From: Escherichia phage SP27
Length of the DNA stretch: 64,000 nucleotides
Sequence record: LC494302.1
Reading direction: 5' to 3' (one strand)
Part shown: positions 4,549 through 14,757 of the stretch, one piece after another
How the letters are laid out: the number at the start of each line of letters is the position of its first letter
Position numbering within the stretch: the stretch's first letter is position 1
Notes under the pieces: generated by a model
The model's database searches: none
What the model was told of the DNA's origin: nothing
The model's input: the letters and a program-made list of their open reading frames with translations, nothing else
Made by a program: the position numbers and the translations under genes

Positions 4549-5185
4549 TTAAACACATAGAGACAGGGGAAGCTCCTAGTGAACAACCTTTATGTACAGG
4601 CGAATTGTTAAAATTCAGCCTGGACAAATGCGATCACTAGGATTCTCCCCAGGCTAAACCCCGTAATCATAGGTAGTCATAAGTAATCATATATAAACAT
4701 TTATATGAGCACCGTAGAATCACAGAATGATTATATATGATTCAGTACTGATTAGTATAGACAAGAATGCTCAAGAATGCACGGGAAGGATTCAGAATGA
4801 TTCAGTACTGATATGCCACTAAGTAGGCAGAGGAAGTCTGCCGTACTTTGTAGTTTCCAAGCTCCTTTTCCATTTTGCAAATTACATCAAATGTAATCAA
4901 AAGTAATCACGCAATGATTAGTACTGAATTATTACTTTCACCTTAATTTCAATTACCCCTTTACCCTTCGGGGTAAAATTCAATTACCCCTTGAGGCTCC
5001 AGCAAAAAGTTGGTTAGTACTCCATCCTAAATCTGGATCGTAAAAAATTTGGAGTACCTATGAAATAAAAGTTGGATCTTCGAAAGTTGAAATTTACGTT
5101 GGGACATATAGGATTTGTGGGATATAATGAGTTTTGTAGCGATACAGATTATACGATTTCAGTACTGAATAATGAAAGAAAGCTA

Positions 5186-5213
5186 TTGACATTATGATTC
5201 AGTACTGTATAAT
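5186..5213 (+). promoter_or_regulatory. orphan sigma70-like promoter with no downstream ORF
   Basis: TTGACA 5186-5191, 16 bp spacer containing AGTACTG, TATAAT 5208-5213. Confidence 0.5.
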
Positions 5214-5549
5214 GTTCTACATAGGGTGATGAGTTGCTGCGAACAATTCATTTACTCTACCTCCTGTCGTGAGACAGTACAGAAAAGATAGTTCCTCCTG
5301 TGGTGGTACATCTTTTTGAACCTCATATGAAAATCGTAATAACAGTACTGATATTAACAGAATGGTGTCAGTACTGATTTTAATCTAAAGCATTATGCCA
5401 CCAGCACAAGTTGGTGGATTCCCTCTAACAGTATTCAGTACTACATGATAGTCTTCATCCTCCTAGGGTAACATAGTGAGGGCTATGATGGCAGTACTGA
5501 ATACTCCCTTTCAAAAGATAGATCTATGGTATAGTACTGACGGATTTTG

Positions 5550-5745
5550 GGTGTAGTTACCCTGGATGGATTTTGGACGTAGATATGTCTAGCCCTCCAG
5601 AAGTCTGGAAGTAAAGATGGCTATCCATCTAGACGGCTAAACGGATAGATTTCTGGATGGCTGGATGGCTAGACGTTTGGACGGCTAAACGGCTAGATGG
5701 TTACACGTCTGGAAGTATAGACGGCTAAATCAAAATTTTATTTTG
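5550..5745. repeat. cluster of short direct repeats (iteron-like)
   Basis: GACGGCTAAA x3, TCTGGAAGTA x2, several GGATGG/CCATCC and CTAGACG motifs within about 200 bp, locally GC-richer. Confidence 0.5.
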
Positions 5746-5950
5746 TTTTTTCCAATAGTTCCCCTACCGCGTGGGGATAGTTTCCCCGCAGTATCTGGAG
5801 TTAGATTTTTCTGAATCTGGAATCATTATCTTATAAACTGGGGGCAATGTCAACGGCCTGGACGGATATTTTTAAAAATTTTTTCAGTACTGAATTTTGG
5901 GCGTAACTATGCACCCGGTGGGCTTGAGTCTTTCTCGACTTGATGGAACT

Positions 5951-5978
5951 ATTATACAGTACTGAAAAAATAAAGCAA
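5951..5978 (-). promoter_or_regulatory. minus-strand sigma70-like promoter
   Basis: reverse complement reads TTGCTT-16-TATAAT; transcribes leftward through a GCACCCGGTGGG element. Confidence 0.4.
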
Positions 5979-6166
5979 TACCCTGGAAGCAAAAAAGTTT
6001 TAATTAATTTGCTTGCTATCCTGGGCCGGACTATGGTACTATATTTCAGTACTGAGAAAGTGCGTTTACCTGCTAGGGTGCGGGAGTGTATCCTTTTTTT
6101 ATATCTTGAATTTTGGGCGTAATTCCGCACCCTCTGGGGTTTCCGCTTTCTCGCGTCTATGTAGTA

Positions 6167-6194
6167 ATTATACGCTTTTTCAGGATCAAGTCAA
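6167..6194 (-). promoter_or_regulatory. minus-strand sigma70-like promoter
   Basis: reverse complement reads TTGACT-16-GCGTATAAT. Confidence 0.45.
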
Positions 6195-6349
6195 TACCTA
6201 AAAACAAAATAATTGAAAATAATTTAACGCGTTTAAACGGCCCGTAACGCCCTGGAATGATTAGAATGGTGCAAATGTATAGCTTAGGTGTATTAATGCG
6301 TTAGAATGCGTCTGAGGCCGTTTTATGGGGTGTAGTAGTGATTTGGTTG

Positions 6350-6440
6350 ATTCAGTACTGAATAATAGTACTCCTATATAGAAAGATAGTTCCCCTGGAT
6401 GGTTGCAGTACTGAATAATAGTACTCCTATATAGAAAGAA
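6350..6440. repeat. direct repeat of about 34 bp, two copies
   Basis: CAGTACTGAATAATAGTACTCCTATATAGAAAGA occurs twice about 55 bp apart. Confidence 0.7.
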
Positions 6441-6470
6441 AACTATTTTAAAAGTATTTGTAGAAAGTAC

Positions 6471-6530
6471 TTGCACCGTACTGATAAAAGCGTATAATGT
6501 TTTACATCGAGAGCGGGAACACTTCCCGCT
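6471..6530 (+). promoter_or_regulatory. class I early promoter plus 5' stem-loop cassette
   Basis: TTGCAC 6471-6476, TATAAT 6493-6498, GTTTTACATC; hairpin AGCGGGAAcacTTCCCGCT 6512-6530. Confidence 0.65.
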
Positions 6531-6553
6531 ACACATTAAGAGAGATTAAAACG

Positions 6554-6916
6554 ATGGCGACTCAAATCAATAAAATCATGCTTAACCTGGTAAACTTCCG
6601 CGATGAGATGAAAGGTCTTCCGGCTGAAACTGTAAAAATTCACATTGCAGCTTATCGGGAACTTATTGCAATGTTGCCGCTTAAGCGTGAACAATACGCC
6701 GCTACTTTGATGCTGGATTCAATGATCCATATAATGATCTCAAATGATTTAACGATGGTTTATCAGTACATGGGCGAAAATTTCGCGGTGTGTAGTAAGC
6801 CAGTACCAGGGATGGCAACAACTGAGGAATTGCACGGCTTAAACTTAAAACAAGATGCATGGGATAATATGCCTCGTTTCCTGGTATGGGCTGACAGTGG
6901 CAAAATTTACAAATAA
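6554..6916 (+). CDS. hypothetical protein
   Basis: start at ATG 6554 (MATQINK) downstream of cassette; 120 aa. Confidence 0.6.
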   Translation: MATQINKIMLNLVNFRDEMKGLPAETVKIHIAAYRELIAMLPLKREQYAATLMLDSMIHIMISNDLTMVYQYMGENFAVCSKPVPGMATTEELHGLNLKQDAWDNMPRFLVWADSGKIYK

Positions 6917-6930
6917 GTTTAATAAAGTAC

Positions 6931-6989
6931 TTGCAAACTATGTTTAATGGCGTATAATGTTTTACATCAGGTGGGGAATAGTTCCCCAC
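6931..6989 (+). promoter_or_regulatory. class I early promoter plus 5' stem-loop cassette
   Basis: AAAGTACTTGCAA -35, GCGTATAAT -10 at 6953-6958; hairpin GTGGGGAAtagTTCCCCAC 6971-6989. Confidence 0.7.
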
Positions 6990-7008
6990 TATATAAGAGG
7001 ATTAAAAA

Positions 7009-7248
7009 ATGGCTAAATCAAAAATGTTCTTAGGTCACAAAAACAAAACTCATTGGAATGTAAGCCTGTGGATTAATAACGATGAGGGATTGTATCGGTT
7101 GGCCCTGGACTTTATTGCCGCCAATACTAATCGCAATGATGCGGCCCGTCATATGATGTTATTTTTAGAACAGACTGGACAAGATAAAACACCGGACGGA
7201 TTCAAATATAGCACTACTGCGATCCGTGCGGCGATGGTTGGAATGTAA
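7009..7248 (+). CDS. hypothetical protein, paralog of 9050..9289
   Basis: shares HKNKTHWNVSLWINN and TPDGFKYSTTAIRAAMVGM with the 9050 gene. Confidence 0.65.
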   Translation: MAKSKMFLGHKNKTHWNVSLWINNDEGLYRLALDFIAANTNRNDAARHMMLFLEQTGQDKTPDGFKYSTTAIRAAMVGM

Positions 7249-7334
7249 TAGAATTTATTTAAAGTACTATCATTTTTTTGCGATAGTACTTTATAATAGT
7301 GTTTTATTCATACACCAACGATAAGGGCAACAGC

Positions 7335-7601
7335 ATGAATATTAAGTATTTTGCGACGCGTGAACAAGCTCGGATCGCCGCACGCCAGGACGGGGCAACG
7401 TTTAAAGATATGGGAGCGGGATCGGCAAGTGGTGAACGTTGGGCCATTGTAAAGCGTAGTACGGCCAGATCTTTACAGTACTGGTTAGCGGCCTTAAAAA
7501 GTCCCGATAGTGTATCGCGTCGAGTGGTAGAAATAAAGCTCGACCGAAAGGGCAACCGCGTGACCGTGTACCGTACTAAAAAGATTGCAGTACTTGAATA
7601 A
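7335..7601 (+). CDS. hypothetical protein, paralog of 20376..20771
   Basis: shares FATREQARIAAR..GETFKDMG and DRKGNRVTVY; start at ATG 7335. Confidence 0.6.
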   Translation: MNIKYFATREQARIAARQDGATFKDMGAGSASGERWAIVKRSTARSLQYWLAALKSPDSVSRRVVEIKLDRKGNRVTVYRTKKIAVLE

Positions 7602-7608
7602 AAAGTAC

Positions 7609-7667
7609 TTGCAAACTATGTTTAATGGCGTATAATGTTTTACATCGAGAGCGGGAACACTTCCCGC
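7609..7667 (+). promoter_or_regulatory. class I early promoter plus 5' stem-loop cassette
   Basis: TTGCAA 7609-7614, TATAAT 7631-7636; hairpin GCGGGAAcacTTCCCGC 7651-7667. Confidence 0.7.
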
Positions 7668-7688
7668 CTATAACCTGGAGTAATAAAA

Positions 7689-7919
7689 ATGACTAATATG
7701 TATATGACTGAAGTTAAAACCGTAAAAGATACTACCACGAATAAAACTACTTACTTACAGCGGATCTGTGGTGTATGGCAACGTATCAGCAAATCAAAGT
7801 ACTTTAAATTAACATCATATGCAAATCGTTCGGATTCATTCAGTACTGAAATAAAAGGTAATAAAGTACACCAATACGGCACTTATTATTATTATAGCCT
7901 GGACGCGATTGCAGTATAA
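7689..7919 (+). CDS. hypothetical protein
   Basis: GGAG RBS; 76 aa. Confidence 0.55.
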   Translation: MTNMYMTEVKTVKDTTTNKTTYLQRICGVWQRISKSKYFKLTSYANRSDSFSTEIKGNKVHQYGTYYYYSLDAIAV

Positions 7920-7957
7920 GCAGTTTACAAATCTTTACAATTGCCGGTATTGACTTA

Positions 7958-7988
7958 TTTTGTCAGTACTGGCATAATGTATTCATTG
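7958..7988 (+). promoter_or_regulatory. class II promoter (TTGACT ... AGTACTGGCATAAT)
   Basis: ATTGACTtattttgtcAGTACTGGCATAAT; no ORF downstream; faces a minus-strand promoter. Confidence 0.45.
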
Positions 7989-8093
7989 GCAGATAAGCCG
8001 TAGCCCATAGGGTGCGGGAGTGTATCTATAGAAAAAGTAGTTTAGTATAGTTACAATTGTGCACCCGGTGGGTTAGCTGTTGTCATGGGGTAT

Positions 8094-8122
8094 ATTATGC
8101 CAGTACTTGATAATGCTGTCAA
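8094..8122 (-). promoter_or_regulatory. minus-strand class II promoter, convergent with the 7958 promoter
   Basis: reverse complement reads ATTGACAgcattatcaAGTACTGGCATAAT. Confidence 0.45.
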
Positions 8123-8168
8123 TACTTTTTTTTTAATATTCAGTACTGAAAACTATTTTTAAAAAGTA

Positions 8169-8196
8169 CTTGCAAACTATGTTTAAAGGCGTATAA
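8169..8196 (+). promoter_or_regulatory. class I early promoter
   Basis: AAAAGTACTTGCAAactatgtttaaaGGCGTATAATGTTTTACATC. Confidence 0.65.
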
Positions 8197-8205
8197 TGTT
8201 TTACA

Positions 8206-8277
8206 TCAGGACGGGGAACGAAATAAGTAACTTCCCGTTAAGTAGCCCAGGAGTAAGGCACACGAAAAACTCCCCTG
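8206..8277 (+). other. conserved structured RNA-like element, copy 1
   Basis: CAGG-ACGGGGAA...TTCCCGT...CTCCCCTG nested complementarity; near-identical copy at 19183-19251. Confidence 0.4.
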
Positions 8278-8287
8278 ATAAAATAGT

Positions 8288-8315
8288 TTGACAATTGTTT
8301 TTAAAAGCGTATAAT
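8288..8315 (+). promoter_or_regulatory. sigma70-like promoter
   Basis: TTGACA 8288-8293, 16 bp spacer, TATAAT 8310-8315. Confidence 0.6.
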
Positions 8316-8347
8316 ACTTACATCAACTACTGAATGAGGGTTACAAA

Positions 8348-8959
8348 ATGAAAACTATCACTACTACTACTTATGTTATGGCTTTTTCTGAATTGAACGC
8401 AGAACAACAAACGTCAGCTATCGAACTGGTTCGGGAACGTGAAAAAAACTTAAACGATGATTATTTTTCTGAAAGTGAAATTGAATACTATAAAGAAACA
8501 GTACTACCGGAATATGGCATTAATGACGCTGAAATACAATTCAGTGGCTTTTGGTCCCAGGGTGACGGTGCATCAATCAGTACTGACCACGTTGACGCAG
8601 TGAAGTTTTTACGCAAGGTAAGAGCATTAACTAAGTATCGCTCAATCCGTCACTTGCTGAATGAAGATGATTTGGCGATGAGTGTAAAGCGTTCGCACTC
8701 CCACTACTCGCATGAGAATACTGTAAGCGGGTACATTGAATCGGCTTACACTGATTTAACCGCAAAACAAGAAACGTTAGTTAATGAGCTTGAGGAACTA
8801 CTCACTGAAACTATTCGTGAATTATCCCGCAAGTTGTACCGTGATTTAGAGAATGCATATGAGGATCAATTCACTACTGAAAACATTACGGCACTGATTG
8901 AGGGTAACGAATATCAATTCAATGTTATTGATGGAGTAGTAGAATCAATCGAATATTAA
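8348..8959 (+). CDS. hypothetical acidic protein
   Basis: 203 aa; GAGGG RBS; no family recognised. Confidence 0.6.
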   Translation: MKTITTTTYVMAFSELNAEQQTSAIELVREREKNLNDDYFSESEIEYYKETVLPEYGINDAEIQFSGFWSQGDGASISTDHVDAVKFLRKVRALTKYRSIRHLLNEDDLAMSVKRSHSHYSHENTVSGYIESAYTDLTAKQETLVNELEELLTETIRELSRKLYRDLENAYEDQFTTENITALIEGNEYQFNVIDGVVESIEY

Positions 8960-8971
8960 TTTAAAAAGTAC

Positions 8972-9031
8972 TTGCAAACTAAGTTTAAAAGCGTATAATA
9001 CTTTATATCGAGGCGGGGAGTGGTTCCCCGC
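8972..9031 (+). promoter_or_regulatory. class I early promoter plus 5' stem-loop cassette
   Basis: TTGCAA 8972-8977, TATAAT 8994-8999; hairpin GCGGGGAgtggTTCCCCGC 9013-9031. Confidence 0.65.
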
Positions 9032-9049
9032 TCAAACGAGGATTTAAAA

Positions 9050-9289
9050 ATGGCTAGTACTAAAACTTACAACGGACACAAAAACAAAACTCATTGGAAT
9101 GTAAGCCTTTGGATTAATAACGGTGAGTCATTGTATCGGCTTGCTCAAAGTTGCATCGCACAAAGTAGAACTAAAGATATTGCTGCGGAATGTATGTACC
9201 GCAGATTAAAAGCCAACGGTACTACTACAACGCCGGACGGCTTTAAGTATAGCACTACTGCGATCCGTGCTGCAATGGTTGGAATGTAA
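9050..9289 (+). CDS. hypothetical protein, paralog of 7009..7248
   Basis: start at ATG 9050 (MASTKTYNGHKNKTHWNVSLWINN); conserved C-term. Confidence 0.65.
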   Translation: MASTKTYNGHKNKTHWNVSLWINNGESLYRLAQSCIAQSRTKDIAAECMYRRLKANGTTTTPDGFKYSTTAIRAAMVGM

Positions 9290-9328
9290 TATTCAGTACT
9301 GAGATAATGGCGGGAACTATTACCCGCC
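9279..9328 (+). promoter_or_regulatory. promoter plus stem-loop
   Basis: TTGGAA 9279-9284, AGTACTGAGATAAT -10; hairpin GGCGGGaactattaCCCGCC 9309-9328. Confidence 0.4.
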
Positions 9329-9346
9329 TTTACTGAGGGTTATCTA

Positions 9347-9634
9347 ATGAGTAAAGTAATAAAGTACAATGTGTTAAGCAAATCATTGTCTATCAGTGAA
9401 TGCACCGATGGTTTTTGGATGTACGATGAAACGCGTGGCATGAATTTAGCTATGCGTGCAAAAACTGCTGAGGCGGCGTATATTCAAGCACTGGAATACT
9501 ACCAGGAACGTTTGAAGGAAGTAGAAGAAGATTATAAAAGCCTCAAAGCGAAAGTAGATCATTTCGTCGGTCAATTCGTGGAAGACAACGACGAGGACGG
9601 GCACTACTGCGACCGTTGCGGATCTTACAGTTAA
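9347..9634 (+). CDS. hypothetical protein
   Basis: 95 aa; C-terminal CDRCGSYS. Confidence 0.55.
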   Translation: MSKVIKYNVLSKSLSISECTDGFWMYDETRGMNLAMRAKTAEAAYIQALEYYQERLKEVEEDYKSLKAKVDHFVGQFVEDNDEDGHYCDRCGSYS

Positions 9635-9651
9635 GTACTAAGGATTATATA

Positions 9652-9864
9652 ATGAGTGATTTAATTGAACGTATCAAAGAGCTTGAAGAAAAAGAATTGC
9701 AGTTGATCGGGTTACGGAATAAAGTATTCCATGATTTAGGTGGCTTTATTAATGCCTGGGATAGTGGCGATCCTGATGCGTTACCTGCTAACCGCCAGGC
9801 GATGATCAATGATGTGCGTGGTGTCTTTGATTATGTTTTAAAAGTACTAGACACTAAGCAATAA
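9652..9864 (+). CDS. hypothetical protein
   Basis: start at ATG 9652 (MSDLIERIKELEEKE). Confidence 0.55.
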   Translation: MSDLIERIKELEEKELQLIGLRNKVFHDLGGFINAWDSGDPDALPANRQAMINDVRGVFDYVLKVLDTKQ

Positions 9865-9925
9865 AGGCGTATAATACTTTATATTGGTACTGACAAACAT
9901 TATAAGCGATGCAGGAGCTTTAATC

Positions 9926-10111
9926 ATGACAACATTATCTGAGGTTATCCGCGATCAAGCTGCAAAGGCTGGAATGACTGTTATCAATGTAGGGATCAAG
10001 ATTGAGATCTCCCCTAACGAGTTGCAAGGGATTCCCGATCCTACTAGCTGGGATCGTGCTGGGCGAATGATGAGTAATGCTTCATTACTGGACGGTACAA
10101 AATTTAATTAA
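9926..10111 (+). CDS. hypothetical protein
   Basis: start at ATG 9926 after AGGAG RBS (MTTLSEVIRDQ). Confidence 0.5.
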   Translation: MTTLSEVIRDQAAKAGMTVINVGIKIEISPNELQGIPDPTSWDRAGRMMSNASLLDGTKFN

Positions 10112-10118
10112 AAAGTAC

Positions 10119-10178
10119 TTGCAATTAGTTTTCAGTACTGTATAATGGTTTACATCAAAGGGAGAAATGGTTCTCCCT
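10119..10178 (+). promoter_or_regulatory. class I early promoter plus 5' stem-loop cassette
   Basis: TTGCAA 10119-10124, TATAAT 10141-10146; hairpin AGGGAGAAatggTTCTCCCT 10159-10178. Confidence 0.65.
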
Positions 10179-10196
10179 GGTAATGAGGAAAATACA

Positions 10197-10418
10197 ATGG
10201 CTAATATCACTACTCTTTCCCAACTGGAAGCACTGGTTAAATCTATGCGGGAACATGCCGACAAAATCGGCGTACAAGATCCAGCCGTTTGCTTCTGCGA
10301 CGAATTGAATGATGATACACTGGTAATAGCAGAAGTCCAGGACGTTTCTAACTATTCCTCGCGTTACACTGGCGGCGTAGCAAATAAAGGTGACTTCTGT
10401 TTATACCTTACAAAATAA
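10197..10418 (+). CDS. hypothetical protein
   Basis: start at ATG 10197 (MANITTLSQ) after GAGGA RBS. Confidence 0.55.
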   Translation: MANITTLSQLEALVKSMREHADKIGVQDPAVCFCDELNDDTLVIAEVQDVSNYSSRYTGGVANKGDFCLYLTK

Positions 10419-10453
10419 CAACGCGGGGAGATAATAACTCCCCGTTACTTTTT
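10419..10453 (+). terminator. intrinsic terminator
   Basis: AACGCGGGGAGataataaCTCCCCGTT stem followed by T-run. Confidence 0.5.
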
Positions 10454-10524
10454 CAGTACTGAATCATTTAATAGACGGATCTCGGCACCCGGTGGGTTAG
10501 TGACTGTTTCGTCTTGATGTAGTA

Positions 10525-10553
10525 ATTATGCCAGTACTGGATGCACTTGTCAA
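10525..10553 (-). promoter_or_regulatory. minus-strand class II promoter
   Basis: reverse complement reads TTGACAagtgcatccAGTACTGGCATAAT; transcribes leftward through GCACCCGGTGGG element. Confidence 0.45.
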
Positions 10554-10586
10554 CAACTATTTTTCAAATACTTTTTATTAAAATAC

Positions 10587-10640
10587 TTGCAATTAGTTTT
10601 TAAACGCGTATAATGTTTTGCATAGGGGGAGCGGTTCCCC
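10587..10640 (+). promoter_or_regulatory. class I early promoter plus 5' stem-loop cassette
   Basis: TTGCAA 10587-10592, TATAAT 10609-10614; hairpin GGGGGAgcggTTCCCC. Confidence 0.6.
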
Positions 10641-10661
10641 TGGTAACTAAGGAATAATAAA

Positions 10662-10898
10662 ATGCTTGAACAAATCAAATCAACGTCTGCGAATGTAACG
10701 GGAACGGTTGTACACTTTACTAGTGATGAATCGCGGGGCGTTCCCTATTGTGCTGTACATGTAAACACTGATGGCAACTACTGGTTTACGGTTTACGGAT
10801 CATATTCATTTGGACGGCCAGGGCATCAAAAAATTCTGGATAAAGTACAACCAACGGGTAAAAATATCACTGCCGAAATGTTTTATAAAAAATCATAA
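10662..10898 (+). CDS. hypothetical protein
   Basis: 78 aa downstream of cassette. Confidence 0.55.
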   Translation: MLEQIKSTSANVTGTVVHFTSDESRGVPYCAVHVNTDGNYWFTVYGSYSFGRPGHQKILDKVQPTGKNITAEMFYKKS

Positions 10899-10903
10899 AG
10901 TAC

Positions 10904-10962
10904 TTGCAATTAGTTTTTAGTACTGTATAATATTTTACATCGCAAGGGGAAACGGTTTCCCC
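10904..10962 (+). promoter_or_regulatory. class I early promoter plus 5' stem-loop cassette
   Basis: TTGCAA 10904-10909, TATAAT 10926-10931; hairpin GGGGAAacggTTTCCCC 10946-10962. Confidence 0.65.
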
Positions 10963-10982
10963 TGGTAACTAAGGATAATCAA

Positions 10983-11282
10983 ATGAAAATTGCAATCATC
11001 GCCCTGGCTTTATCTGTTTCCTCTTTCGCTGTTAATGCGTCGTTAGATGTAAGTAGTGAAAAATTCATTCAGTGCACTGTTGCAATGACCGATGAAAGAA
11101 CTGGCGAGATTGTATTAAAGGATTTAGAGATCCAGCCGGAAGCATTTAAAAACGGCCCGTTCCATGAAGAAGACGAAAACGGTAGCACGACAATTTATTA
11201 TGATGCCAGTTCCAAGCGTGGATCGGTCACTGTAATGGATACTGAGAAAGTAACACACACAGGCGTTATTAATTGCCGTTGA
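10983..11282 (+). CDS. small secreted or periplasmic protein (predicted signal peptide)
   Basis: N-terminus MKIAIIALALSVSSFAVNAS is signal-peptide-like (basic start, hydrophobic core, A-x-A-like site). Confidence 0.55.
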   Translation: MKIAIIALALSVSSFAVNASLDVSSEKFIQCTVAMTDERTGEIVLKDLEIQPEAFKNGPFHEEDENGSTTIYYDASSKRGSVTVMDTEKVTHTGVINCR

Positions 11283-11303
11283 TAGATACTACGGGGTAAC
11301 ATC

Positions 11304-11534
11304 ATGACTAAGCGAATTGTTTTACTTAACGAAAGCAGTACTACACAACTACTTAACGCCGTGCATTATGATATTGAAACGAGCGTTAATCTTATCAGTA
11401 CTGTAGTACTGTTGGACACTGGAAAGGTCGCCAATGATAAAGCGATTGCAGGTATATTAACGGATCTTGAGCCTGGTAGCAGTGCACCCATAACGTTAAA
11501 TGGTAAAGTGTTTAATATTTTACTCACTGATTAA
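11304..11534 (+). CDS. hypothetical protein
   Basis: 76 aa; followed by terminator. Confidence 0.55.
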   Translation: MTKRIVLLNESSTTQLLNAVHYDIETSVNLISTVVLLDTGKVANDKAIAGILTDLEPGSSAPITLNGKVFNILLTD

Positions 11535-11540
11535 GTACAT

Positions 11541-11568
11541 AGCCCACCAGGTGGGCTTTTTTGTTTTT
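11541..11568 (+). terminator. intrinsic terminator
   Basis: AGCCCACCaGGTGGGCT hairpin followed by TTTTTTGTTTTT. Confidence 0.75.
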
Positions 11569-11767
11569 ATAGTATCGTAGTACTGAGATACTTTGAAAAT
11601 AGTTTTAAGAAAGTAGTTGACATTACCACAGAAAAGCGTAGAATGTATTACATCAAGACGGGGAGCACTAAGTAGACCGCCAGTAAGTCGAACGAAAAAC
11701 TGGACACGTCGAGAAAACTTTGATACACTAATAAACGTAAACTAAACTTTAATTGAGGATTTATAAA

Positions 11768-12250
11768 ATGGCTAATGTAAAATCATTCATCAAAGCACTG
11801 GTAGCAAATGAAACTAACGTCGCGGCTGAGATCCTGGCTGAACTGGATAACGATACCATGAAAGCGGTACGCAATAATTTTAACATCGCGTACAGTACTG
11901 CGAAAGAACTACAAGCAAATAAAGCGGCAGAAATTGAAGCGGCAAAGGCGGCCCGTGAAGCAGAACTACAAGCAACAATCGAAAGTATCCAGGCGGCGGT
12001 GTCTGGATTGGATCTGGAAGTGGTTGTGGAAATGGCACATAAAGCCCTGGCGGTTAAGTATGGTGAAGATAAGCCAGAATCTAAACCTAAAAAATGGATT
12101 CAAGAACGTGTTACTGTAGTACTTGATAACGGGGAAGAACATATGATTCCTGTACGCGGTAACTGCATTGCGGTAGTACTGGACGCTATCAAAGAAAGCG
12201 GTATGACTCGCGAGGAATGGATCGAAGCTCATCGCAAAGTTGAAGCATAA
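11768..12250 (+). CDS. hypothetical protein
   Basis: start at ATG 11768 (MANVKSF) after GAGGA RBS; Ala/Glu-rich central helix. Confidence 0.55.
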   Translation: MANVKSFIKALVANETNVAAEILAELDNDTMKAVRNNFNIAYSTAKELQANKAAEIEAAKAAREAELQATIESIQAAVSGLDLEVVVEMAHKALAVKYGEDKPESKPKKWIQERVTVVLDNGEEHMIPVRGNCIAVVLDAIKESGMTREEWIEAHRKVEA

Positions 12251-12271
12251 CAATTAAAGTACTGAATCACT

Positions 12272-12300
12272 AGCCCACCTTAAACAGTGGGCTTTTTTGT
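12272..12300 (+). terminator. intrinsic terminator
   Basis: AGCCCACcttaaacaGTGGGCT followed by TTTTTTGT. Confidence 0.7.
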
Positions 12301-12453
12301 GTCTGTAGTATTCCAGTCCACCAGCACCGCCTAGAATCGATTCTAACGCATTAAACTGATTATCTGATGCATTGCCCTAGCTGGTGGCGTGAAGGTCGTT
12401 AGAATGCGATTGAGAGCGTTTAAAGTATTTTGCAAAAAGTAATAAAAAGTACT

Positions 12454-12512
12454 TGCACGATTAAGAGATTAGCGTATAATGTTTTACATCGAGAGGGGGA
12501 AACGGTTCTCCT
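12454..12512 (+). promoter_or_regulatory. class I early promoter plus 5' stem-loop cassette
   Basis: TTGCAC 12454-12459, GCGTATAAT 12475-12480; hairpin GGGGGAAacggTTCTCC. Confidence 0.6.
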
Positions 12513-12535
12513 TCCAAATCAAAGGAATCAAAACA

Positions 12536-12763
12536 ATGGCTATTATCATTACTCGCGTATCTGGTACTACTGGCAACGAACAAGTAGTTGCAGTCATTAC
12601 CAACAAGGAAGGTGCGGAATTGCAAAATGCAATGAATACCTGGGCCGTTAATGAGTTCGGTCAGTGGGCAAGTGTAGCATACATTGAAACCTATCAAGTG
12701 CCGTCGATTAGTTTAACTGATTTGGGCGTTGAGCGTATCCTTTGCCTGGATGAATTAAATTAA
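12536..12763 (+). CDS. hypothetical protein
   Basis: start at ATG 12536 (MAIIITRVSG). Confidence 0.55.
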   Translation: MAIIITRVSGTTGNEQVVAVITNKEGAELQNAMNTWAVNEFGQWASVAYIETYQVPSISLTDLGVERILCLDELN

Positions 12764-12772
12764 AAAAGTACT

Positions 12773-12832
12773 TGCAAAGTAAATCGAATAAAGTATAATA
12801 CATTACATCAAGGGGAGAAATGGTTCTCCCCA
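12773..12832 (+). promoter_or_regulatory. class I early promoter plus 5' stem-loop cassette
   Basis: TTGCAA 12773-12778, TATAAT 12794-12799; hairpin GGGGAGAAatggTTCTCCCC 12813-12832. Confidence 0.65.
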
Positions 12833-12848
12833 CTACAAGGAAACTAAA

Positions 12849-12992
12849 ATGAAAACTTGTCAATGTGGTCAGAAATCTATTACGGGTTTAAAGCGGGGCG
12901 TTGCTCTTTGCCAGTACCATTATAATTTACAAGTATGGGGTAAAGAATGGGCCGACCAGGTGGAAGCAGCAAAGAAAGCAAAAAGTAAGTAA
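12849..12992 (+). CDS. hypothetical small Cys-containing protein (47 aa, below ORF-track cutoff)
   Basis: read by hand: MKTCQCGQKSITGLKRGVALCQYHYN...; own cassette and RBS. Confidence 0.45.
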   Translation: MKTCQCGQKSITGLKRGVALCQYHYNLQVWGKEWADQVEAAKKAKSK

Positions 12993-13011
12993 AAATATTA
13001 TCACAGTACTA

Positions 13012-13040
13012 TTGACATAGTTTGATAGTACTGGCATAAT
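13012..13040 (+). promoter_or_regulatory. class II promoter
   Basis: CAGTACTATTGACAtagtttgatAGTACTGGCATAAT; no 5' hairpin. Confidence 0.6.
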
Positions 13041-13073
13041 AGATTTTATCAAGACAACTAAGAGGAAATTAAA

Positions 13074-13418
13074 ATGGCTAACATCAATACTATAGCAGCA
13101 CAAAATATCAACCTGTCTTCTGTTGAAGTTGTACACATTGCCGCCCGGCGTTGGTTCCAGGCGTCTTATGGTAATACTTATTTCTCTTTAACGGTAGATG
13201 TTGAAATCAATGGCGAATTTATTGAAGTAGTAAACGTGCCGTTCCAATATGGCTACGGGGATCATTTTGACACTGTAGCAATGGAAGAATTTAGCAAGGT
13301 TATTAATATGGAAGGTAAAGAGTTTTTACGCGGTTCTTATCTTTCCCGTTTTTGCCGTGATAATAATATCACTGTTTATAGTTCGGTAACTGATGTTAAA
13401 CGCAAAAAAGATCTTTAA
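13074..13418 (+). CDS. hypothetical protein, paralog of 19957..20280
   Basis: shares GNTY, YGYG and C-terminal DVKRKKD with the 19957 gene. Confidence 0.6.
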   Translation: MANINTIAAQNINLSSVEVVHIAARRWFQASYGNTYFSLTVDVEINGEFIEVVNVPFQYGYGDHFDTVAMEEFSKVINMEGKEFLRGSYLSRFCRDNNITVYSSVTDVKRKKDL

Positions 13419-13498
13419 TTAGCTTTACTTTATGCAGATACTTTGATATAGTGTCTGCATAGGGGAAAGAAATTAAATTAACTTAAGAGGATAGTATA

Positions 13499-13768
13499 AT
13501 GAAAAATATCAGTACTTTAATCGATGCAGGTACACATGTTCGGCGGTCTATGGTTGCAACCAGTACTACAAAACAAGTAGCGAGCGGTTATCTTGTATTT
13601 GTGCACGATGGAAAACTCCTGGAACGTTCAATCAATTTTGATGTTAAAAACAATTGCCGTTTTATTATCTTTAAGCGTGAGCAATATAAAATTGATTTAC
13701 CAGCAAAGCCCATTAGTGGGGCGTACAACGTGCAATCAATGTTTGAACGTCAACCATACACCTATTAA
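13499..13768 (+). CDS. hypothetical protein
   Basis: 89 aa. Confidence 0.5.
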   Translation: MKNISTLIDAGTHVRRSMVATSTTKQVASGYLVFVHDGKLLERSINFDVKNNCRFIIFKREQYKIDLPAKPISGAYNVQSMFERQPYTY

Positions 13769-13819
13769 TCAAAACATCGTTAGCGGTCGATTCAGGCCGC
13801 TTATATTGGGGATTATACC

Positions 13820-14092
13820 ATGAACGTTAATCAAGTACTGAATGAGATCGAAAGCATCATTAAACCGATGAAGCGTACTGATGCTATGTTAACACCGGAA
13901 GAATGCCGCCTTTATGAGCGTTACAGCGTCGAACAAGTCCAGGCAATGGCTATGGCTACCCCAGCCGTTAAACCGCCTGAGAATGCGTTACAGGACGTTA
14001 CAGGGGATTATATCATCAATCCAGTACTAGGGAAGATGGCTGCAATCACCGAAGATCAACAAGACTACTTAAGCCAGTACTTAAAAGGTTAA
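13820..14092 (+). CDS. hypothetical protein
   Basis: 90 aa. Confidence 0.5.
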   Translation: MNVNQVLNEIESIIKPMKRTDAMLTPEECRLYERYSVEQVQAMAMATPAVKPPENALQDVTGDYIINPVLGKMAAITEDQQDYLSQYLKG

Positions 14093-14097
14093 TTAAT

Positions 14098-14307
14098 ATG
14101 CTTACTGTACAGGATAAGATCGACATCTTAAAGGTTAATATGTATGTGATTGATGCAGTACCTGGTAAAGTATTTGCATACGATGATAGTACTGTAAGCG
14201 ATTTCTACTATAGCCAGGCCGTGGGGGATCTTTCTGTACAGTCGGTTATTGAAAACGTAGTTAATGCAGCGTATGAGCATTTACTTTCAAATAGTACTTG
14301 CAATTAG
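14098..14307 (+). CDS. hypothetical protein
   Basis: 69 aa immediately after previous gene. Confidence 0.5.
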   Translation: MLTVQDKIDILKVNMYVIDAVPGKVFAYDDSTVSDFYYSQAVGDLSVQSVIENVVNAAYEHLLSNSTCN

Positions 14308-14357
14308 TTTTTAAACGCGTATAATGTTTTACATGAAGGGGAGAAATGATTCTCCCC
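14298..14357 (+). promoter_or_regulatory. class I early promoter plus 5' stem-loop cassette
   Basis: TTGCAA 14298-14303, TATAAT 14320-14325; hairpin GGGGAGAAatgaTTCTCCCC 14338-14357. Confidence 0.65.
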
Positions 14358-14376
14358 ACTAATTAAGGAATATGAA

Positions 14377-14523
14377 ATGAAAGCATCAAAAAAGAGTACT
14401 AACAAGAAAGCACGTTCAACCTTAGATGGGGTATTCCCTTTACGTTTCGTTGATGAAGTGGTTTCCTACCCGCCTGGCCTTACTCCTGAGATGGTAGAAA
14501 GTTTGCGTAAATCTAAAAAATAG
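14377..14523 (+). CDS. hypothetical small basic protein (48 aa, below ORF-track cutoff)
   Basis: read by hand: MKASKKSTNKKARSTLDG...; AAGGA RBS. Confidence 0.4.
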   Translation: MKASKKSTNKKARSTLDGVFPLRFVDEVVSYPPGLTPEMVESLRKSKK

Positions 14524-14526
14524 TAC

Positions 14527-14586
14527 TTGCAATTAGTTTTTAGTACTGTATAATGTTTTACATAGAGGGGGGAAATGGTTCTCCCC
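14527..14586 (+). promoter_or_regulatory. class I early promoter plus 5' stem-loop cassette
   Basis: TTGCAA 14527-14532, TATAAT 14549-14554; hairpin GGGGGGAAatggTTCTCCCC. Confidence 0.65.
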
Positions 14587-14604
14587 AATAACAGGAGAAA
14601 CAAA

Positions 14605-14757
14605 ATGAAACAATACAACGCTCGGTTTGATGTTACTATCGGCAACGGTAAAGGTCAATTCTCTTTCAGTACTCGACGCAGTTATACAGAAAACTTCCTG
14701 CGTAATTGTGCACTGACCGCCGCACAAATTAAACATTACTTTCAGGCTAAAAAATGA
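14605..14757 (+). CDS. hypothetical small protein (50 aa)
   Basis: start at ATG 14605 (MKQYNARFDV) after AGGAGA RBS. Confidence 0.45.
   Translation: MKQYNARFDVTIGNGKGQFSFSTRRSYTENFLRNCALTAAQIKHYFQAKK

What the first reader, a model, noticed from the sequence alone, without database searches (positions are those of the whole stretch)
4550..6500. About 2 kb ORF-poor region between family A array and the early genes, rich in hairpins and palindromes
No convincing ORF. It contains long-range complementarity at 4560-4665 (GGGGAAGCTCCTAGTG ... CACTAGGATTCTCCCC enclosing AGCCTGG/CCAGGCT), a hairpin TTACCC-TTCG-GGGTAA with a UUCG tetraloop at about 4950-4975, CTGTC-GTGA-GACAG at about 5270, numerous TTCAGTACTGA palindromes, an orphan promoter at 5186-5213 and the direct repeat at 6350-6440. 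It may encode several small RNAs or serve as a regulatory or structural hub.
Basis: seen in the sequence. Interest (0 to 1): 0.55.

Follow-up and report, generated by a model that had tools for sequence, protein, structure and literature searches.

The report
Chromosome end and non-coding terminal leader
The gene-free 2 kb holds the physical left end of a jumbo coliphage chromosome and its conserved non-coding "leader", which carries the cut site, orphan promoters, small RNA-like units and a long array of sites that look like operators for the host methionine repressor MetJ.

Summary
In detail: window 4549-6554 has no conserved ORF, tRNA or Rfam match. Yet it is conserved as well as the flanking genes.

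The window comes from an Asteriusvirus (PBECO4/121Q-like jumbo coliphage). Full-length records of relatives start at window 4822 and end at 25750. So a 20.9-kb direct terminal repeat (DTR) begins inside the finding. Bases 4549-4821 are the last unique DNA; 4822-6554 is a non-coding leader.

The leader's layout is collinear across several jumbo-phage genera. It holds:
- a cut site, CTA^AG, at the foot of a hairpin, repeated in inverted orientation at the right boundary and in two other genera;
- one inward consensus sigma-70 promoter and three outward ones;
- 14-19 tandem 8-bp units that pass a published MetJ operator test (100 bits; natural operators 25-31);
- three of eleven DTR-only "promoter + small structured element" units.

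Similar arrays lie near chromosome ends of T7-like and T5-like phages. Klebsiella relatives and T5 carry Fur-box-like repeats in the same position.

The terminus assignment is firm. The nick mechanism, MetJ binding and RNA products are inferences.

The parts
4556..4662 (+). Long imperfect hairpin just after the last family-A gene, in the last unique DNA before the terminal repeat. The outer stem CTCCTAGTGA/TCACTAGGA is conserved and the interior is variable.
   Evidence: I10; z = -5.24, 0/200 shuffles
4803..4821 (+). Conserved block immediately outside the repeat, CAGTACTGATATGCCACTA, ending at the cut. Likely the recognition sequence for left-end formation.
   Evidence: Conserved in 7 of 8 Asteriusvirus relatives while the 100 nt upstream vary. 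18 of 19 nt identical in RaK2, where it abuts the position homologous to Muenster's PhageTerm-defined start.
4817..4826 (+). Left chromosome end. The cut lies between 4821 and 4822, in CACTA^AGTAG.
   Evidence: ELP-22, fEgEco12 and G17 (reverse complement) all begin at window 4822. fEgEco12 termini come from PhageTerm plus restriction digests. The CTA^ motif is found at six boundaries.
4822..4847 (+). Terminal hairpin AGTAGGCAGA-GGAAG-TCTGCC(G)TACT, starting at the first base of the chromosome.
   Evidence: z = -3.35, 2/200. Kae01 also starts at the foot of a perfect 8-bp hairpin.
4822..25750 (.). Direct terminal repeat, 20,929 bp, present at both ends of the packaged chromosome. The finding covers its first 1.7 kb.
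   Evidence: papers
5015..5062 (.). Deeply conserved inverted repeat AGTACTCCATCCTAAATC...TTGGAGTAC.
   Evidence: Most conserved 100 nt of the region. Homologues in XbC2, pEa_SNUABM_12 and GAP32 and in Kae01. Fold z = -2.4.
5186..5213 (+). Inward-facing consensus sigma-70 promoter (TTGACA-16-TATAAT) with no ORF downstream, 365 nt from the chromosome end.
   Evidence: 12/12. Hexamers invariant in 9 genomes. Equivalent promoters in Muenster and Kae01 leaders.
5266..5279 (+). Small hairpin CTGTC-GTGA-GACAG (GNRA-type loop) inside the putative transcript from the 5186 promoter.
   Evidence: conserved in all 9; z = -2.5
5398..5417 (+). G+C-rich hairpin CCACCAGC-ACAA-GTTGGTGG. A possible 3' end for a roughly 200-nt RNA from the 5186 promoter.
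   Evidence: Stem kept while the loop is inverted and a G.T pair becomes G-C in relatives. Annotated as a terminator in G17. Homologue in Kae01. z = -2.2.
5575..5726 (.). Array of 19 in-phase 8-bp units with consensus AGACGTCT. Fourteen adjacent units (5615-5726) qualify as MetJ operator boxes.
   Evidence: (D1). Indels among relatives come in multiples of 8.
5756..5787 (.). Overlapping hairpins TAGTTCCCC-TACCGCGT-GGGGATAGTTTCCCC following the array.
   Evidence: z = -1.8. The core CCTACCGCG is conserved in Kae01 and EJP2.
5825..5853 (-). Outward (leftward) sigma-70-like promoter TTGACA-17-GATAAT, aimed at the array and the chromosome end.
   Evidence: 11/12; hexamers conserved
5885..5978 (-). 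Unit 1 of the DTR-specific family: promoter TTGCTT-16-TATAAT (5978-5951), small hairpin GUC-GAGAAA-GAC, and core GCCCACCGGGTGC.
6013..6101 (+). Unit 2: promoter TTGCTA-18-TACTAT with a TG extension, a roughly 52-nt transcript with core ACCTGCTAGGGTGC, and a hairpin plus T7 terminator-like end (6075-6101).
   Evidence: 75.5% identical to Muenster over 147 nt.
6105..6194 (-). Unit 3, convergent with unit 2: promoter TTGACT-16-TATAAT (6194-6167), hairpin CGC-GAGAAA-GCG, and core ACCCCAGAGGGTGC.
   Evidence: (11/12). 6107-6171 is 90.8% identical to XbC2. The convergent pair is also present in Muenster and Kae01.
6295..6330 (+). Motif GCGTTAGAATGCG-N7-CCGTTTTA, shared with the untranslated repeat regions of the T5 terminal repeat.
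   Evidence: (E = 0.007)
6353..6439 (+). Two identical 34-nt direct repeats with a 53-nt period. Copy number varies among relatives.
   Evidence: (D4)
6471..6556 (+). First early promoter (TTGCAC-16-TATAAT), 5' stem-loop AGCGGGAA-CAC-TTCCCGCT, ribosome-binding site, and ATG of the first early gene (6554). This marks the end of the leader.
   Evidence: gene annotated in relatives
25746..25755 (-). Right boundary of the terminal repeat. The cut lies between 25750 and 25751, and the bottom strand reads GTCGCTA^AGGTT.

Best explanation
The region is the junction between the unique DNA and the 20.9-kb direct terminal repeat (DTR) of an Asteriusvirus chromosome. Base 4822 is the first base of the packaged DNA. 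Bases 4822-6554 are a conserved, non-coding terminal leader present at both repeat copies.

Shown:
- the position of both repeat boundaries;
- the absence of genes;
- conservation as good as the flanking genes, and a collinear module order across several jumbo-phage genera.

Inferred, with my own probabilities:
1. Ends are made by a sequence-specific nick after CTA (CTA^AG). It falls on the top strand at the left boundary and on the bottom strand at the right boundary. Strand-displacement synthesis across the repeat then gives each daughter chromosome a full copy. The hairpin at the first base and the conserved 19 nt just outside the repeat are part of the recognition site. Probability about 0.5.
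2. The 14-19 tandem 8-bp units bind the host methionine repressor MetJ with its corepressor SAM, as a long cooperative filament about 750-900 bp from the DNA end. It would act as a roadblock or end-proximal nucleoprotein mark, or as a repressor sink once the genome is amplified. Sister lineages use Fur-box-like repeats in the same position. Probability that MetJ binds: about 0.5.
3. The consensus inward promoter, three outward promoters and three 'promoter + hairpin' units are fired by host RNA polymerase immediately after entry and give short non-coding RNAs. Probability about 0.5.
For: Terminus. ELP-22, fEgEco12 and G17 all start at window 4822, and fEgEco12 and G17 end at 25750. fEgEco12 termini were determined with PhageTerm and restriction digests, giving a 20,993-bp repeat. 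G17 showed doubled read coverage over about 20 kb.

Non-coding and selected. Identity to relatives is 0.85-0.97 in the leader against 0.78-0.91 in flanking genes. Collinear blocks occur in Alcyoneusvirus, Mimasvirus, Eneladusvirus and Kae01.

Cut site. All six boundaries with PhageTerm-defined ends in three genera read CTA^ on the strand whose 5' end becomes the chromosome end, and five of the six continue with AG. I proposed the motif from the window alone and then found it in Muenster and Kae01. The terminal hairpin folds with z = -3.35.

Array. With the published MetJ weight matrix and its criteria there are 14 adjacent boxes totalling 100.2 bits. Shuffles of the window give at most 3 boxes and 19.3 bits. 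The same script finds only the two true operators in 6.1 kb of E. coli DNA, at 31.2 and 24.9 bits. Base frequencies in 209 phage units mirror natural boxes, including the bases that never occur. Arrays of 8-36 boxes occur in T7-like, T5-like and other jumbo phages, mostly within 1 kb of a genome or contig end. Hosts match the taxonomic range of MetJ. No phage record encodes a MetJ homologue.

Slot swap. Fur-box-like repeats fill the same position in Muenster, Kae01 and T5.

Promoters and units. DTR-located non-coding RNAs are highly expressed in the related phage PA5oct.
Against: - The terminus is transferred by homology. No reads from this phage were available. The most divergent relative (EJP2) lacks the conserved cut context.
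- The shared cut motif is only 3-5 nt. The boundaries of the three genera may be homologous, so they are not independent. The left end of Kae01 reads CTA^TA. The right boundary has no significant hairpin (z = 0.1).
- Half of the array units carry G at position 6, where natural MetJ boxes have T (10% in the mirrored natural profile). The repeat is therefore more asymmetric than a true operator.
- One array-bearing phage is labelled as a Xanthomonas phage, a host order without MetJ.
- I recognised the MetJ match after seeing the array, not before.
- No known role requires MetJ at a phage end.
- Covariation support for the RNA elements is weak. The helix is kept mainly through G.U-compatible transitions, and 24 of 500 shuffles reach the observed score.
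- There are no transcript data.
Confidence: 0.8

Rival explanations
1. The region is primarily a cluster of small-RNA genes or a purely transcriptional regulatory hub. Its position in the genome would be incidental.
For: Five ORF-less sigma-70-type promoters have conserved hexamers. Three units of an 11-member family of promoter-proximal structured elements lie here. The helix is 92.7% paired, with only G.U-compatible changes on its 3' side. PA5oct has abundant non-coding RNAs in its terminal repeat.
Against: This does not explain the exact coincidence with the chromosome end, the cut-site motif or the 8-bp array shared with unrelated phages at their ends. No Rfam or tRNA match was found. It is a component of the best explanation rather than an alternative.
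Confidence: 0.15
2. The region is a replication origin. The iteron-like repeats would bind an initiator, the A+T-rich tracts would melt, and the orphan promoters would prime synthesis, as at T4 oriF/oriG or the T7 primary origin.
For: The cumulative G-C minimum of the whole window is at 5033. The region has a tandem short-repeat array, A+T-rich tracts at 5727-5755 and 5862-5885, and convergent and divergent promoters.
Against: There are no DnaA boxes in the region. The same kind of array lies at the ends of T7-like phages and in the terminal-repeat untranslated region of T5-like phages. T5 origins map near the genome centre. The skew change coincides with a change of gene family, and genes on both sides share one strand. 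No initiator gene was identified.
Confidence: 0.1
3. The region is the functional equivalent of the T5 injection-stop signal. DNA entry would pause here while the early genes of the repeat are expressed.
For: It is an untranslated, repeat- and palindrome-rich region inside a long terminal repeat, like T5 Repeat Region 3. The metbox-type array sits in the homologous slot of Vibrio and Aeromonas T5-like phages, and the Fur-box-type repeat is shared by T5 and Klebsiella jumbo phages. The GCGTTAGAATGCG motif is shared with T5.
Against: Here the region lies at the outer (left) end of the left repeat, before the early genes. A stop there would leave no genes inside the cell. It contains none of the paired DnaA boxes that define the conserved T5 structure. 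Two-step transfer is not known for these phages. A1/A2 homologues were not looked for.
Confidence: 0.08
4. The 8-bp array binds a phage protein rather than host MetJ, for example the small terminase subunit or a ribbon-helix-helix protein. It would serve as the packaging recognition site.
For: The array is close to the cut site and to genome ends in several phage groups. The unit is asymmetric, with G at position 6 in half the units. Ribbon-helix-helix proteins and small terminases commonly bind short tandem repeats (general knowledge).
Against: The array type is shared by T7-like, T5-like and T4-related jumbo phages, which have unrelated terminases. Sister phages with the same leader layout replace it by Fur-box-like repeats. 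Per-box scores equal those of real E. coli operators.
Confidence: 0.25
5. The region is decayed or unrecognised coding DNA: a gene graveyard, or a spliced or frameshifted gene.
For: Some automatic annotations place small ORFs here. The 6353-6439 repeats resemble the 3' end of family-A genes (D4).
Against: All sizeable ORFs are interrupted in relatives. Indels are not in threes. Conservation is as high as in genes and the blocks are collinear across genera.
Confidence: 0.03

Closest known systems
Untranslated 'Repeat Region 3' / injection-stop-signal region of the phage T5 terminal repeat
   Same: A roughly 1-1.7 kb gene-free stretch inside a long direct terminal repeat, within about 1 kb of a repeat boundary. 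[quoted passage not shown] T5-like phages of Vibrio and Aeromonas carry the same 8-bp array. T5 carries the Fur-box-like repeat found in Klebsiella jumbo phages. The GCGTTAGAATGCG motif is shared.
   Different: This region lies at the left end of the repeat, not the right. It has no DnaA-box pairs, no LexA box and no nick-site repeats. The phage is an unrelated jumbo myovirus. Two-step injection has not been shown for it.
Left end / concatemer junction of phage T7 (terminal repeat, short-repeat arrays SRL/SRR, early E. coli promoters; hairpin intermediate in repeat duplication). From established knowledge, not tested here.
   Same: The non-coding DNA at the entering end combines the cut site, arrays of short repeats and strong host-polymerase promoters ahead of the first early gene. 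The repeat must be duplicated from a single junction copy. The T7-like phage PGT2 carries the metbox-type array 38-109 nt from its end.
   Different: The repeat is 20.9 kb rather than 160 bp. The leader is about three times longer. The repeat unit sequence differs from that of T7. The terminase and replication machinery are unrelated.
E. coli MetJ operators (metF, metJ/metB and others)
   Same: Tandem 8-bp boxes without spacers, with consensus AGACGTCT. Per-box information is 7.2 bits against 6.2-7.8 bits in metF and metJ/B. The same bases are never seen at positions 3 and 6. T|A steps are frequent at box junctions.
   Different: There are 14-19 boxes rather than 2-5. The array does not overlap a methionine-gene promoter. 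G replaces T at position 6 in half the units. Binding has not been tested.
Non-coding RNAs in the terminal repeat of the related jumbo phage PA5oct
   Same: ORF-free, promoter-driven stretches inside a long terminal repeat that is transcribed early by host RNA polymerase.
   Different: No sequence similarity was claimed or found. The PA5oct RNAs are 236-451 nt, whereas the units here are about 50-70 nt and occur in 11 copies.
Promoter-early stem-loop (PeSL) cassettes of T4-type phages. From established knowledge, not tested here.
   Same: Repeated intergenic cassettes combining a stem-loop and a sigma-70 early promoter between many small early genes. Orphan copies occur without genes.
   Different: The cassette sequences are unrelated. 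Here several units point away from the genes and form convergent pairs.

Membership tests
Boundary of a long direct terminal repeat (physical chromosome end) | Independently determined termini of close relatives map to one base | tested here: met
   Three records start at window 4822 and two end at 25750. Methods are given.
Boundary of a long direct terminal repeat (physical chromosome end) | The same sequence is present at both ends of full-length records | tested here: met
   The leader is found both at the record start and about 21 kb from the other end in ELP-22, fEgEco12 and G17.
Boundary of a long direct terminal repeat (physical chromosome end) | Read-start pile-up and doubled coverage in this very phage | not testable with these tools
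   No reads were available. The cut context is identical to that of the relatives.
MetJ operator | At least two adjacent 8-bp boxes, each at least 1/4 of the consensus bits, with a total at least equal to the consensus (criteria of PMC3228920) | tested here: met
   14 boxes and 100.2 bits at 5615-5726. Shuffles give at most 3 boxes and 19.3 bits. The method was benchmarked on E. coli.
MetJ operator | Host possesses MetJ | tested here: met
   E. coli metJ was retrieved. MetJ is limited to five gammaproteobacterial orders, which include the hosts of all array-bearing phages except the one labelled Xanthomonas.
MetJ operator | Overlaps the promoter of a methionine-regulon gene | tested here: not met
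   The array lies in gene-free phage DNA between orphan promoters.
MetJ operator | SAM-dependent binding by MetJ | not testable with these tools
   Needs a gel shift, footprint or ChIP experiment.
T5 injection-stop-signal region | Untranslated repeat- and palindrome-rich region within the terminal repeat | tested here: met
T5 injection-stop-signal region | Paired DnaA boxes in conserved inverted repeats | tested here: not met
   No TTWTNCACA in 4549-6554 on either strand.
T5 injection-stop-signal region | Located at the inner (right) end of the left repeat, where first-step transfer stops | tested here: not met
   The region begins at the first base of the left repeat.
Known RNA families (Rfam) / tRNA | Covariance-model or tRNA match | tested here: not met
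   0 matches at E<=1 in 3500-7500. 0 tRNA or tmRNA in the window.
Small-RNA gene (promoter, structured transcript, terminator) | Conserved promoter; conserved structure with compensatory change; defined 3' end; expression | tested here: inconclusive
   Promoters are conserved. The first hairpin differs between paralogues by compensatory pairs, judged by eye. The third helix is 92.7% paired but only 2 cells show double-sided changes. A clear terminator is seen only for unit 6013-6101. Expression was not testable.
Replication origin | Initiator boxes or iterons with a cognate initiator, a DNA-unwinding element, and a skew switch | tested here: inconclusive
   The skew minimum is at 5033 and A+T tracts are present. 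There are no DnaA boxes, and the array is better explained otherwise.

The most novel reading that the evidence does not exclude
Phages that package DNA with long or short exact terminal repeats place super-arrays of host-repressor operators within about 1 kb of a chromosome end. This holds for T7-like, T5-like and RaK2-like jumbo phages. The arrays have 9-36 MetJ boxes in some lineages and Fur-box repeats in sister lineages, next to DnaA and LexA boxes in T5-like phages.

On this reading the phage recruits abundant host repressors as a structural nucleoprotein device at its DNA end. That device could be a roadblock or mark for end formation, for the pause in DNA entry, or for protection. Alternatively the arrays act as a decoy that derepresses methionine/SAM or iron regulons once the genome is amplified. 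Either way, infection would become sensitive to host SAM or iron status.
Probability: 0.35. Interest if true: 0.85.

Novelty: new variant of a known kind. Interest (0 to 1): 0.62.

Why it matters
It turns an unexplained gap into the chromosome end of a 350-kb phage and gives a base-level parts list for a class of cis-acting DNA that annotation pipelines ignore or fill with spurious ORFs.

The CTA^AG motif, in inverted orientation at both repeat boundaries in three genera, gives a direct test of how 20-kb terminal repeats are duplicated.

The operator-like arrays link jumbo phages, T5-like phages and T7-like phages through a shared end-proximal element. They suggest that host repressors (MetJ, Fur) are used at phage DNA ends. 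This bears on the unresolved mechanism of the T5 injection stop and can be tested with simple binding and deletion experiments.

For phage engineering and therapy work, it marks DNA that should not be disturbed or used as an insertion site.

Tried and rejected
- tRNA/tmRNA scan: nothing.
- Rfam at permissive E-value: nothing.
- Protein-coding reading: all ORFs of at least 30 aa are broken in relatives except one implausible TTG ORF.
- Generic terminator and promoter scans are barely above shuffle expectation: 25 promoter-like sites against 21.6, and 6 terminator-like against 3.1. Only sites with conserved hexamers were kept.
- DnaA, LexA and IHF consensus searches in the leader: none, none, and one chance-level IHF match.
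- Fur-box search in the window's leader: none.
- BLAST of the array against 5,426 E. coli genomes: no meaningful hit, because the operators are too short. I replaced this with the published weight matrix.
- Search for a phage-encoded MetJ: none.
- Literature searches linking metboxes to phage ends: none in the held library.
- Covariation test of the CCC/GGG helix: uninformative, because the columns are invariant.
- A hairpin at the right repeat boundary: not supported.
- The roughly 1-kb extra DNA in PBECO4 and the SD phages reported by the first search lies upstream of 4560, where the family-A array sits, not in the leader.
- I did not build a covariance model of the unit family. The motif search already gave 11 copies inside the repeat and none outside it.
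Full report
**What the window is.** Window 4400-6700 matches 43 phage records at 80-99% identity. Nearly all are jumbo coliphages of the genus Asteriusvirus (PBECO4, 121Q, phAPEC6, G17, fEgEco12 and others).

**Checking the observation.** The gene-free stretch is real.
- It runs from the stop codon of the last small "family A" ORF (4548) to the ATG of the first early gene (6554).
- The careful annotations of 121Q, G17 and phAPEC6 leave it empty.
- ARAGORN finds no tRNA in the window. Rfam finds nothing at E<=1 in 3500-7500.
- In an alignment with eight relatives, every ORF of at least 30 aa is interrupted in several genomes. The exception is a TTG-started ORF without a ribosome-binding site.
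- Indels are not multiples of three.

These are the long complementarity at 4556-4662 (z = -5.2), the UUCG and GUGA hairpins, the 12/12 consensus promoter at 5186-5213, the identical 34-nt repeats at 6353-6439 and twelve CAGTACTG palindromes. Two qualifications apply. CAGTACTG is a genome-wide motif: 65 copies against 0.65 expected, at 6.0 per kb here and 0.6-1.3 per kb elsewhere. The UUCG hairpin is not conserved.

**The region is the chromosome end.** In several records of 366-384 kb this stretch lies about 20 kb from one record end, which suggested a terminal repeat.
- The first bases of ELP-22, of fEgEco12 and of the reverse complement of G17 are identical (AGTAGGCAGAGGAAGTCTGCC...) and map to window 4822.
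- The last bases of fEgEco12 and G17 (...GGGCGGGTAACCT) map to window 25750.
- The fEgEco12 termini were determined with PhageTerm and confirmed by restriction digests, giving a 20,993-bp direct terminal repeat (PMC13070987).
- G17 showed doubled coverage over about 20 kb (PMC6563267).

The window therefore holds one copy of a 20,929-bp terminal repeat, 4822-25750. The finding consists of the last 273 nt of unique DNA plus the first 1,733 nt of the chromosome. This is transferred by homology, since no reads of this phage exist. However, the 45 nt around the cut are identical in most relatives.

**The leader is under selection and its plan is old.**
- Identity to the window across eight relatives is 0.85-0.97 in the leader, against 0.78-0.91 in the flanking genes. 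The only variable patches are just upstream of the cut (4700-4800) and in the 6350-6400 repeats.
- More distant jumbo phages also begin with 1.3-1.8 kb lacking credible genes. These are Muenster and RaK2 (Alcyoneusvirus), XbC2 and GAP32 (Mimasvirus), pEa_SNUABM_12, Serratia BF and fHe-Yen9-04 (Eneladusvirus), and fENko-Kae01.
- They share collinear blocks with the window, in this order:
  1. the inverted repeat AGTACTCCATCC...TTGGAGTAC (5015-5062);
  2. an inward consensus promoter;
  3. the hairpin CCACCAGC...GCTGGTGG (5398-5417);
  4. ATTTTGGGTGTA;
  5. a repeat array;
  6. the CCTACCGCG hairpin region (5756-5787);
  7. a convergent pair of promoter units (6013-6194; 6107-6171 is 90.8% identical in XbC2);
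  8. the first early promoter.

**Cut site.** At the left boundary the top strand reads GATATGCCACTA^AGTAGG. At the right boundary the bottom strand reads GAAGTCGCTA^AGGTTA. I proposed from this a shared CTA^AG in inverted orientation. I then tested it in two other genera whose termini were defined with PhageTerm.
- Muenster/RaK2: left ...GATATGCCACTA^AGTCCG; right (bottom strand) ...AAAGTGCTA^AGCCTA.
- Kae01: left ...CCTTCCGCTA^TATCTT; right (bottom strand) ...GGTGGCTA^AGGCAT.

All six boundaries have CTA immediately 5' of the cut on the strand whose 5' end becomes the chromosome end. Five of the six continue with AG. The 19 nt just outside the repeat on the left are conserved between Asteriusvirus and Alcyoneusvirus, while the first bases inside differ. 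The chromosome starts at the foot of a hairpin in the window (z = -3.35) and in Kae01.

This arrangement is what the classical staggered-nick and strand-displacement scheme for duplicating a terminal repeat predicts. That scheme is established knowledge from T7 work. The inference is moderate for two reasons: the motif is short, and the boundaries of the three genera may share ancestry.

**The 8-bp array.** Window 5575-5726 is a run of 19 in-phase 8-bp units. Length differences among relatives are multiples of 8. The per-position consensus in the window is AGACGTCT, which is the consensus "metbox" of the E. coli methionine repressor MetJ. MetJ operators are tandem 8-bp boxes without spacers.

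I applied the weight matrix and criteria published by Augustus and Spicer (PMC3228920).
- The window contains one outstanding site: 14 adjacent qualifying boxes totalling 100.2 bits at 5615-5726.
- A hundred shuffles of the window gave at most 3 boxes and 19.3 bits.
- In 6.1 kb around E. coli metJ-metF, the same script found exactly the two known operators and nothing else: 4 boxes each, at 31.2 and 24.9 bits.
- Per box, the phage array (7.2 bits) is therefore as good as real operators, and it is three to four times longer.
- Pooled over 209 units from 13 phage arrays, base frequencies mirror natural boxes: A/G, G, A, C/T, G, T or G, C, T. T is never seen at position 3 and A never at position 6.
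- The one systematic departure is G at position 6 in half the units.

**Where else the array occurs.** BLAST and pattern scans find the same kind of array in three unrelated phage groups.
- Other jumbo phages have it at 0-1.1 kb from the record start, with GAP32 at about 3.5 kb.
- The T7-like phages PGT2 and phiKT have it. In PGT2 it lies 38-109 nt from the end and is present at both ends.
- T5-like phages of Vibrio, Aeromonas and Providencia have it. In Pontus and AhSzq-1 it sits in the untranslated terminal-repeat region that corresponds to the T5 "injection stop signal". There it lies just upstream of the CCTGCGC motif that marks a single-strand nick in T5, and of the short repeats that follow that motif. 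In Pontus a LexA-like box and DnaA-like boxes precede it.
- An IMG/VR scan returned nine arrays of 8-36 boxes, seven of them within 800 nt of a contig end.

Hosts of array-bearing phages fall in the orders that possess MetJ. The exception is one phage labelled Xanthomonas. No phage record encodes a MetJ homologue. I found no paper in the held library that connects metboxes with phage ends.

**A swapped slot.** In the collinear leaders of the Klebsiella phages Muenster, RaK2 and Kae01, the array position is occupied by repeats such as GATAATGATTCTCATTT.
- These match the Fur-box consensus GATAATGATAATCATTATC (quoted from memory) at 14-16 of 19 positions.
- Counts of strand-hits against shuffles: Muenster 12 against 0.18; Kae01 6 against 0.23.
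- T5 has the same repeat in its stop-signal region: 7 against 0.06.
- The window's leader has none.

Two unrelated phage groups thus alternate between the same two kinds of host-operator-like array at an equivalent place. This argues that the slot is a landing pad for an abundant host repressor and that the repressor's identity is interchangeable. What the bound protein does is not shown. It could be a roadblock for the outward promoters or the packaging motor, a mark for end formation, a pause in entry, or a repressor sink after genome amplification.

**Promoters and small units.** The region has five sigma-70-type promoters with no ORF downstream.
- One points inward: 5186-5213 (12/12 match).
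- Three point outward: 5853-5825, 5978-5951 and 6194-6167.
- One more points inward at 6013-6042.

Their hexamers are conserved while the spacers vary.

A motif search then revealed a family of eleven units, all inside the terminal repeat and none in the other 43 kb of the window. Plus-strand units are at 6068, 8003, 15045, 16719, 19075, 22072 and 24323. Minus-strand units are at 5923, 6140, 8073 and 10497. Kae01 has 10 in its repeat and Muenster 12. Each unit has:
- a strong promoter with an A-tract upstream;
- a short hairpin whose stem differs between copies by compensatory pairs (GGC/GCC, GACG/CGUC, UGAG/CUCA, AGCA/UGCU);
- the core (A/G)CCC-N3-4-GGGUGC;
- a second arm, typically UGUAUCU.

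The helix GGGUGC/GUAUCU is paired in 92.7% of cells, against 30-66% when the partner columns are slid. Its 3' side varies only by changes that keep G.U or G-C pairs. This points to RNA on that strand, but strict covariation is weak. The CCC/GGG helix is invariant and uninformative.

Three units lie in the finding. Two of them form a convergent pair that is conserved in four genera. In the related phage PA5oct, which uses host RNA polymerase, the terminal repeat is transcribed early and contains two abundant non-coding RNAs (PMC7318152). Short RNAs from these units are therefore plausible but untested.

**Rivals.**
- A replication origin is suggested by the cumulative G-C minimum at 5033 and by A+T tracts. 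However, there are no DnaA boxes, and the array is shared with phages whose origins lie elsewhere.
- A T5-type injection stop is unlikely here, because the region precedes the early genes and lacks the defining DnaA-box pairs.
- Binding of the array by a phage protein such as the small terminase subunit remains a serious alternative to MetJ.
- Coding or decayed-gene readings are excluded.

**Verdict.** The finding is a true feature, and its main identity is now clear. It is the left chromosome end plus the conserved non-coding terminal leader of a RaK2-like jumbo phage. The terminus itself is already implicit in database records and in two papers. I did not find the following described anywhere: the anatomy of the leader, the inverted CTA^AG cut motif, the operator-like super-array and its Fur-type counterpart, and the repeat-specific unit family.

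Noticed in passing
whole window (e.g. 107, 2547, 7476, 10133, 22459, 62778): CAGTACTG occurs 65 times against 0.65 expected, and AGTACT about 270 times. Density is highest in the leader, then in the terminal repeat and family-A array, and lowest after 25750. It sits in promoter spacers (often supplying the TG of an extended -10), just upstream of -35 boxes (AAAGTACTTGCA), 12-15 nt before the left cut in three genera, and also inside coding DNA. Such over-representation of a palindrome is unusual and remains unexplained.
   Followed up: partly
window 5923-24323 (11 sites); L026 and L025: The family of 'promoter + hairpin + (A/G)CCC-N3-4-GGGUGC' units is confined to the terminal repeat: 11 copies here, 10 in Kae01 and 12 in Muenster. 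It includes two convergent pairs (6068+/6140- and 8003+/8073-). Plus-strand copies sit just upstream of early promoters.
   Followed up: partly
L025 780-910, 1073-1097, 1306-1324; L026 690-800, 1040; L017 (T5) 9650-9720: Fur-box-like repeats (14-16 of 19 matches) are clustered in the terminal leaders of Klebsiella jumbo phages and in the T5 injection-stop region. They occupy the position that the metbox-like array has in the window.
   Followed up: partly
L040 7257-7544 (IMGVR_UViG_3300031658_004036); L016 2969-3192: An uncultivated viral contig carries 36 tandem metbox-like units (356 bits) 91 nt from its end. Aeromonas phage AhSzq-1 carries 28 (221 bits).
   Followed up: no
window 6298, 12396, 16431 (13975 variant); L017 (T5) 5281, 6290(-), 9349: The motif (G/T)CGTTAGAATGCG-N6-8-CGTTT(T/A)A recurs in the terminal repeat of this phage and in all three untranslated repeat regions of the T5 terminal repeat. 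Its function is unknown.
   Followed up: no
window 25700-25750; L026 19690-19736: The right repeat boundary has a conserved TTGGACTATG 36-45 nt inside the repeat (window and Kae01; GGACTGTT in Muenster). It resembles the -35 region of the GGGATTGACT promoters of the unit family.
   Followed up: no
window 5756-5782: TAGTTCCCC-TACCGCGT-GGGGATA resembles the E. coli type I-E CRISPR repeat (GAGTTCCCCGCGCCAGCGGGGATAAACCG, quoted from memory): 8 + 7 identical bases around an 8-nt centre. This may simply reflect the phage's own GGGGAA/TTCCCC hairpin family. The stem is only 4 bp, and EJP2 and Kae01 lack the flanks.
   Followed up: no
window 6512-6530, 6963-6983, 10160-10185, 17710-17730, 22490-22510: Early transcripts appear to start with ACATC followed at once by a stem-loop of the type GGGGAA-N3-TTCCCC and then the ribosome-binding site. 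This repeated early cassette is reminiscent of the promoter-stem-loop cassettes of T4-type phages.
   Followed up: no
window 4400-4560 and relatives (H4-H6, H8-H10, H14): PBECO4, Ecwhy_1 and the Salmonella SD phages carry about 1-1.3 kb of extra DNA upstream of 4560. This is probably additional family-A gene copies next to the repeat boundary. The 6353-6439 repeats resemble the 3' end of a family-A gene (4513-4546).
   Followed up: no
window 6497-6556; records OR699282.2, PQ390715.1, MT708547.1: The mechanical ORF 6497..6916 starts inside the -10 box, so the real start is ATG 6554. Small CDSs that some records annotate inside the leader (for example ELP22_0002-0004, M2K_0219-0225 and perhaps CPT_Muenster_001) are probably spurious.
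   Followed up: partly
window 1-4800 versus 4800-64000: G-C skew on the + strand is negative across the family-A array and positive from the leader onwards, although genes on both sides are on the + strand. The cumulative minimum is at 5033.
   Followed up: partly
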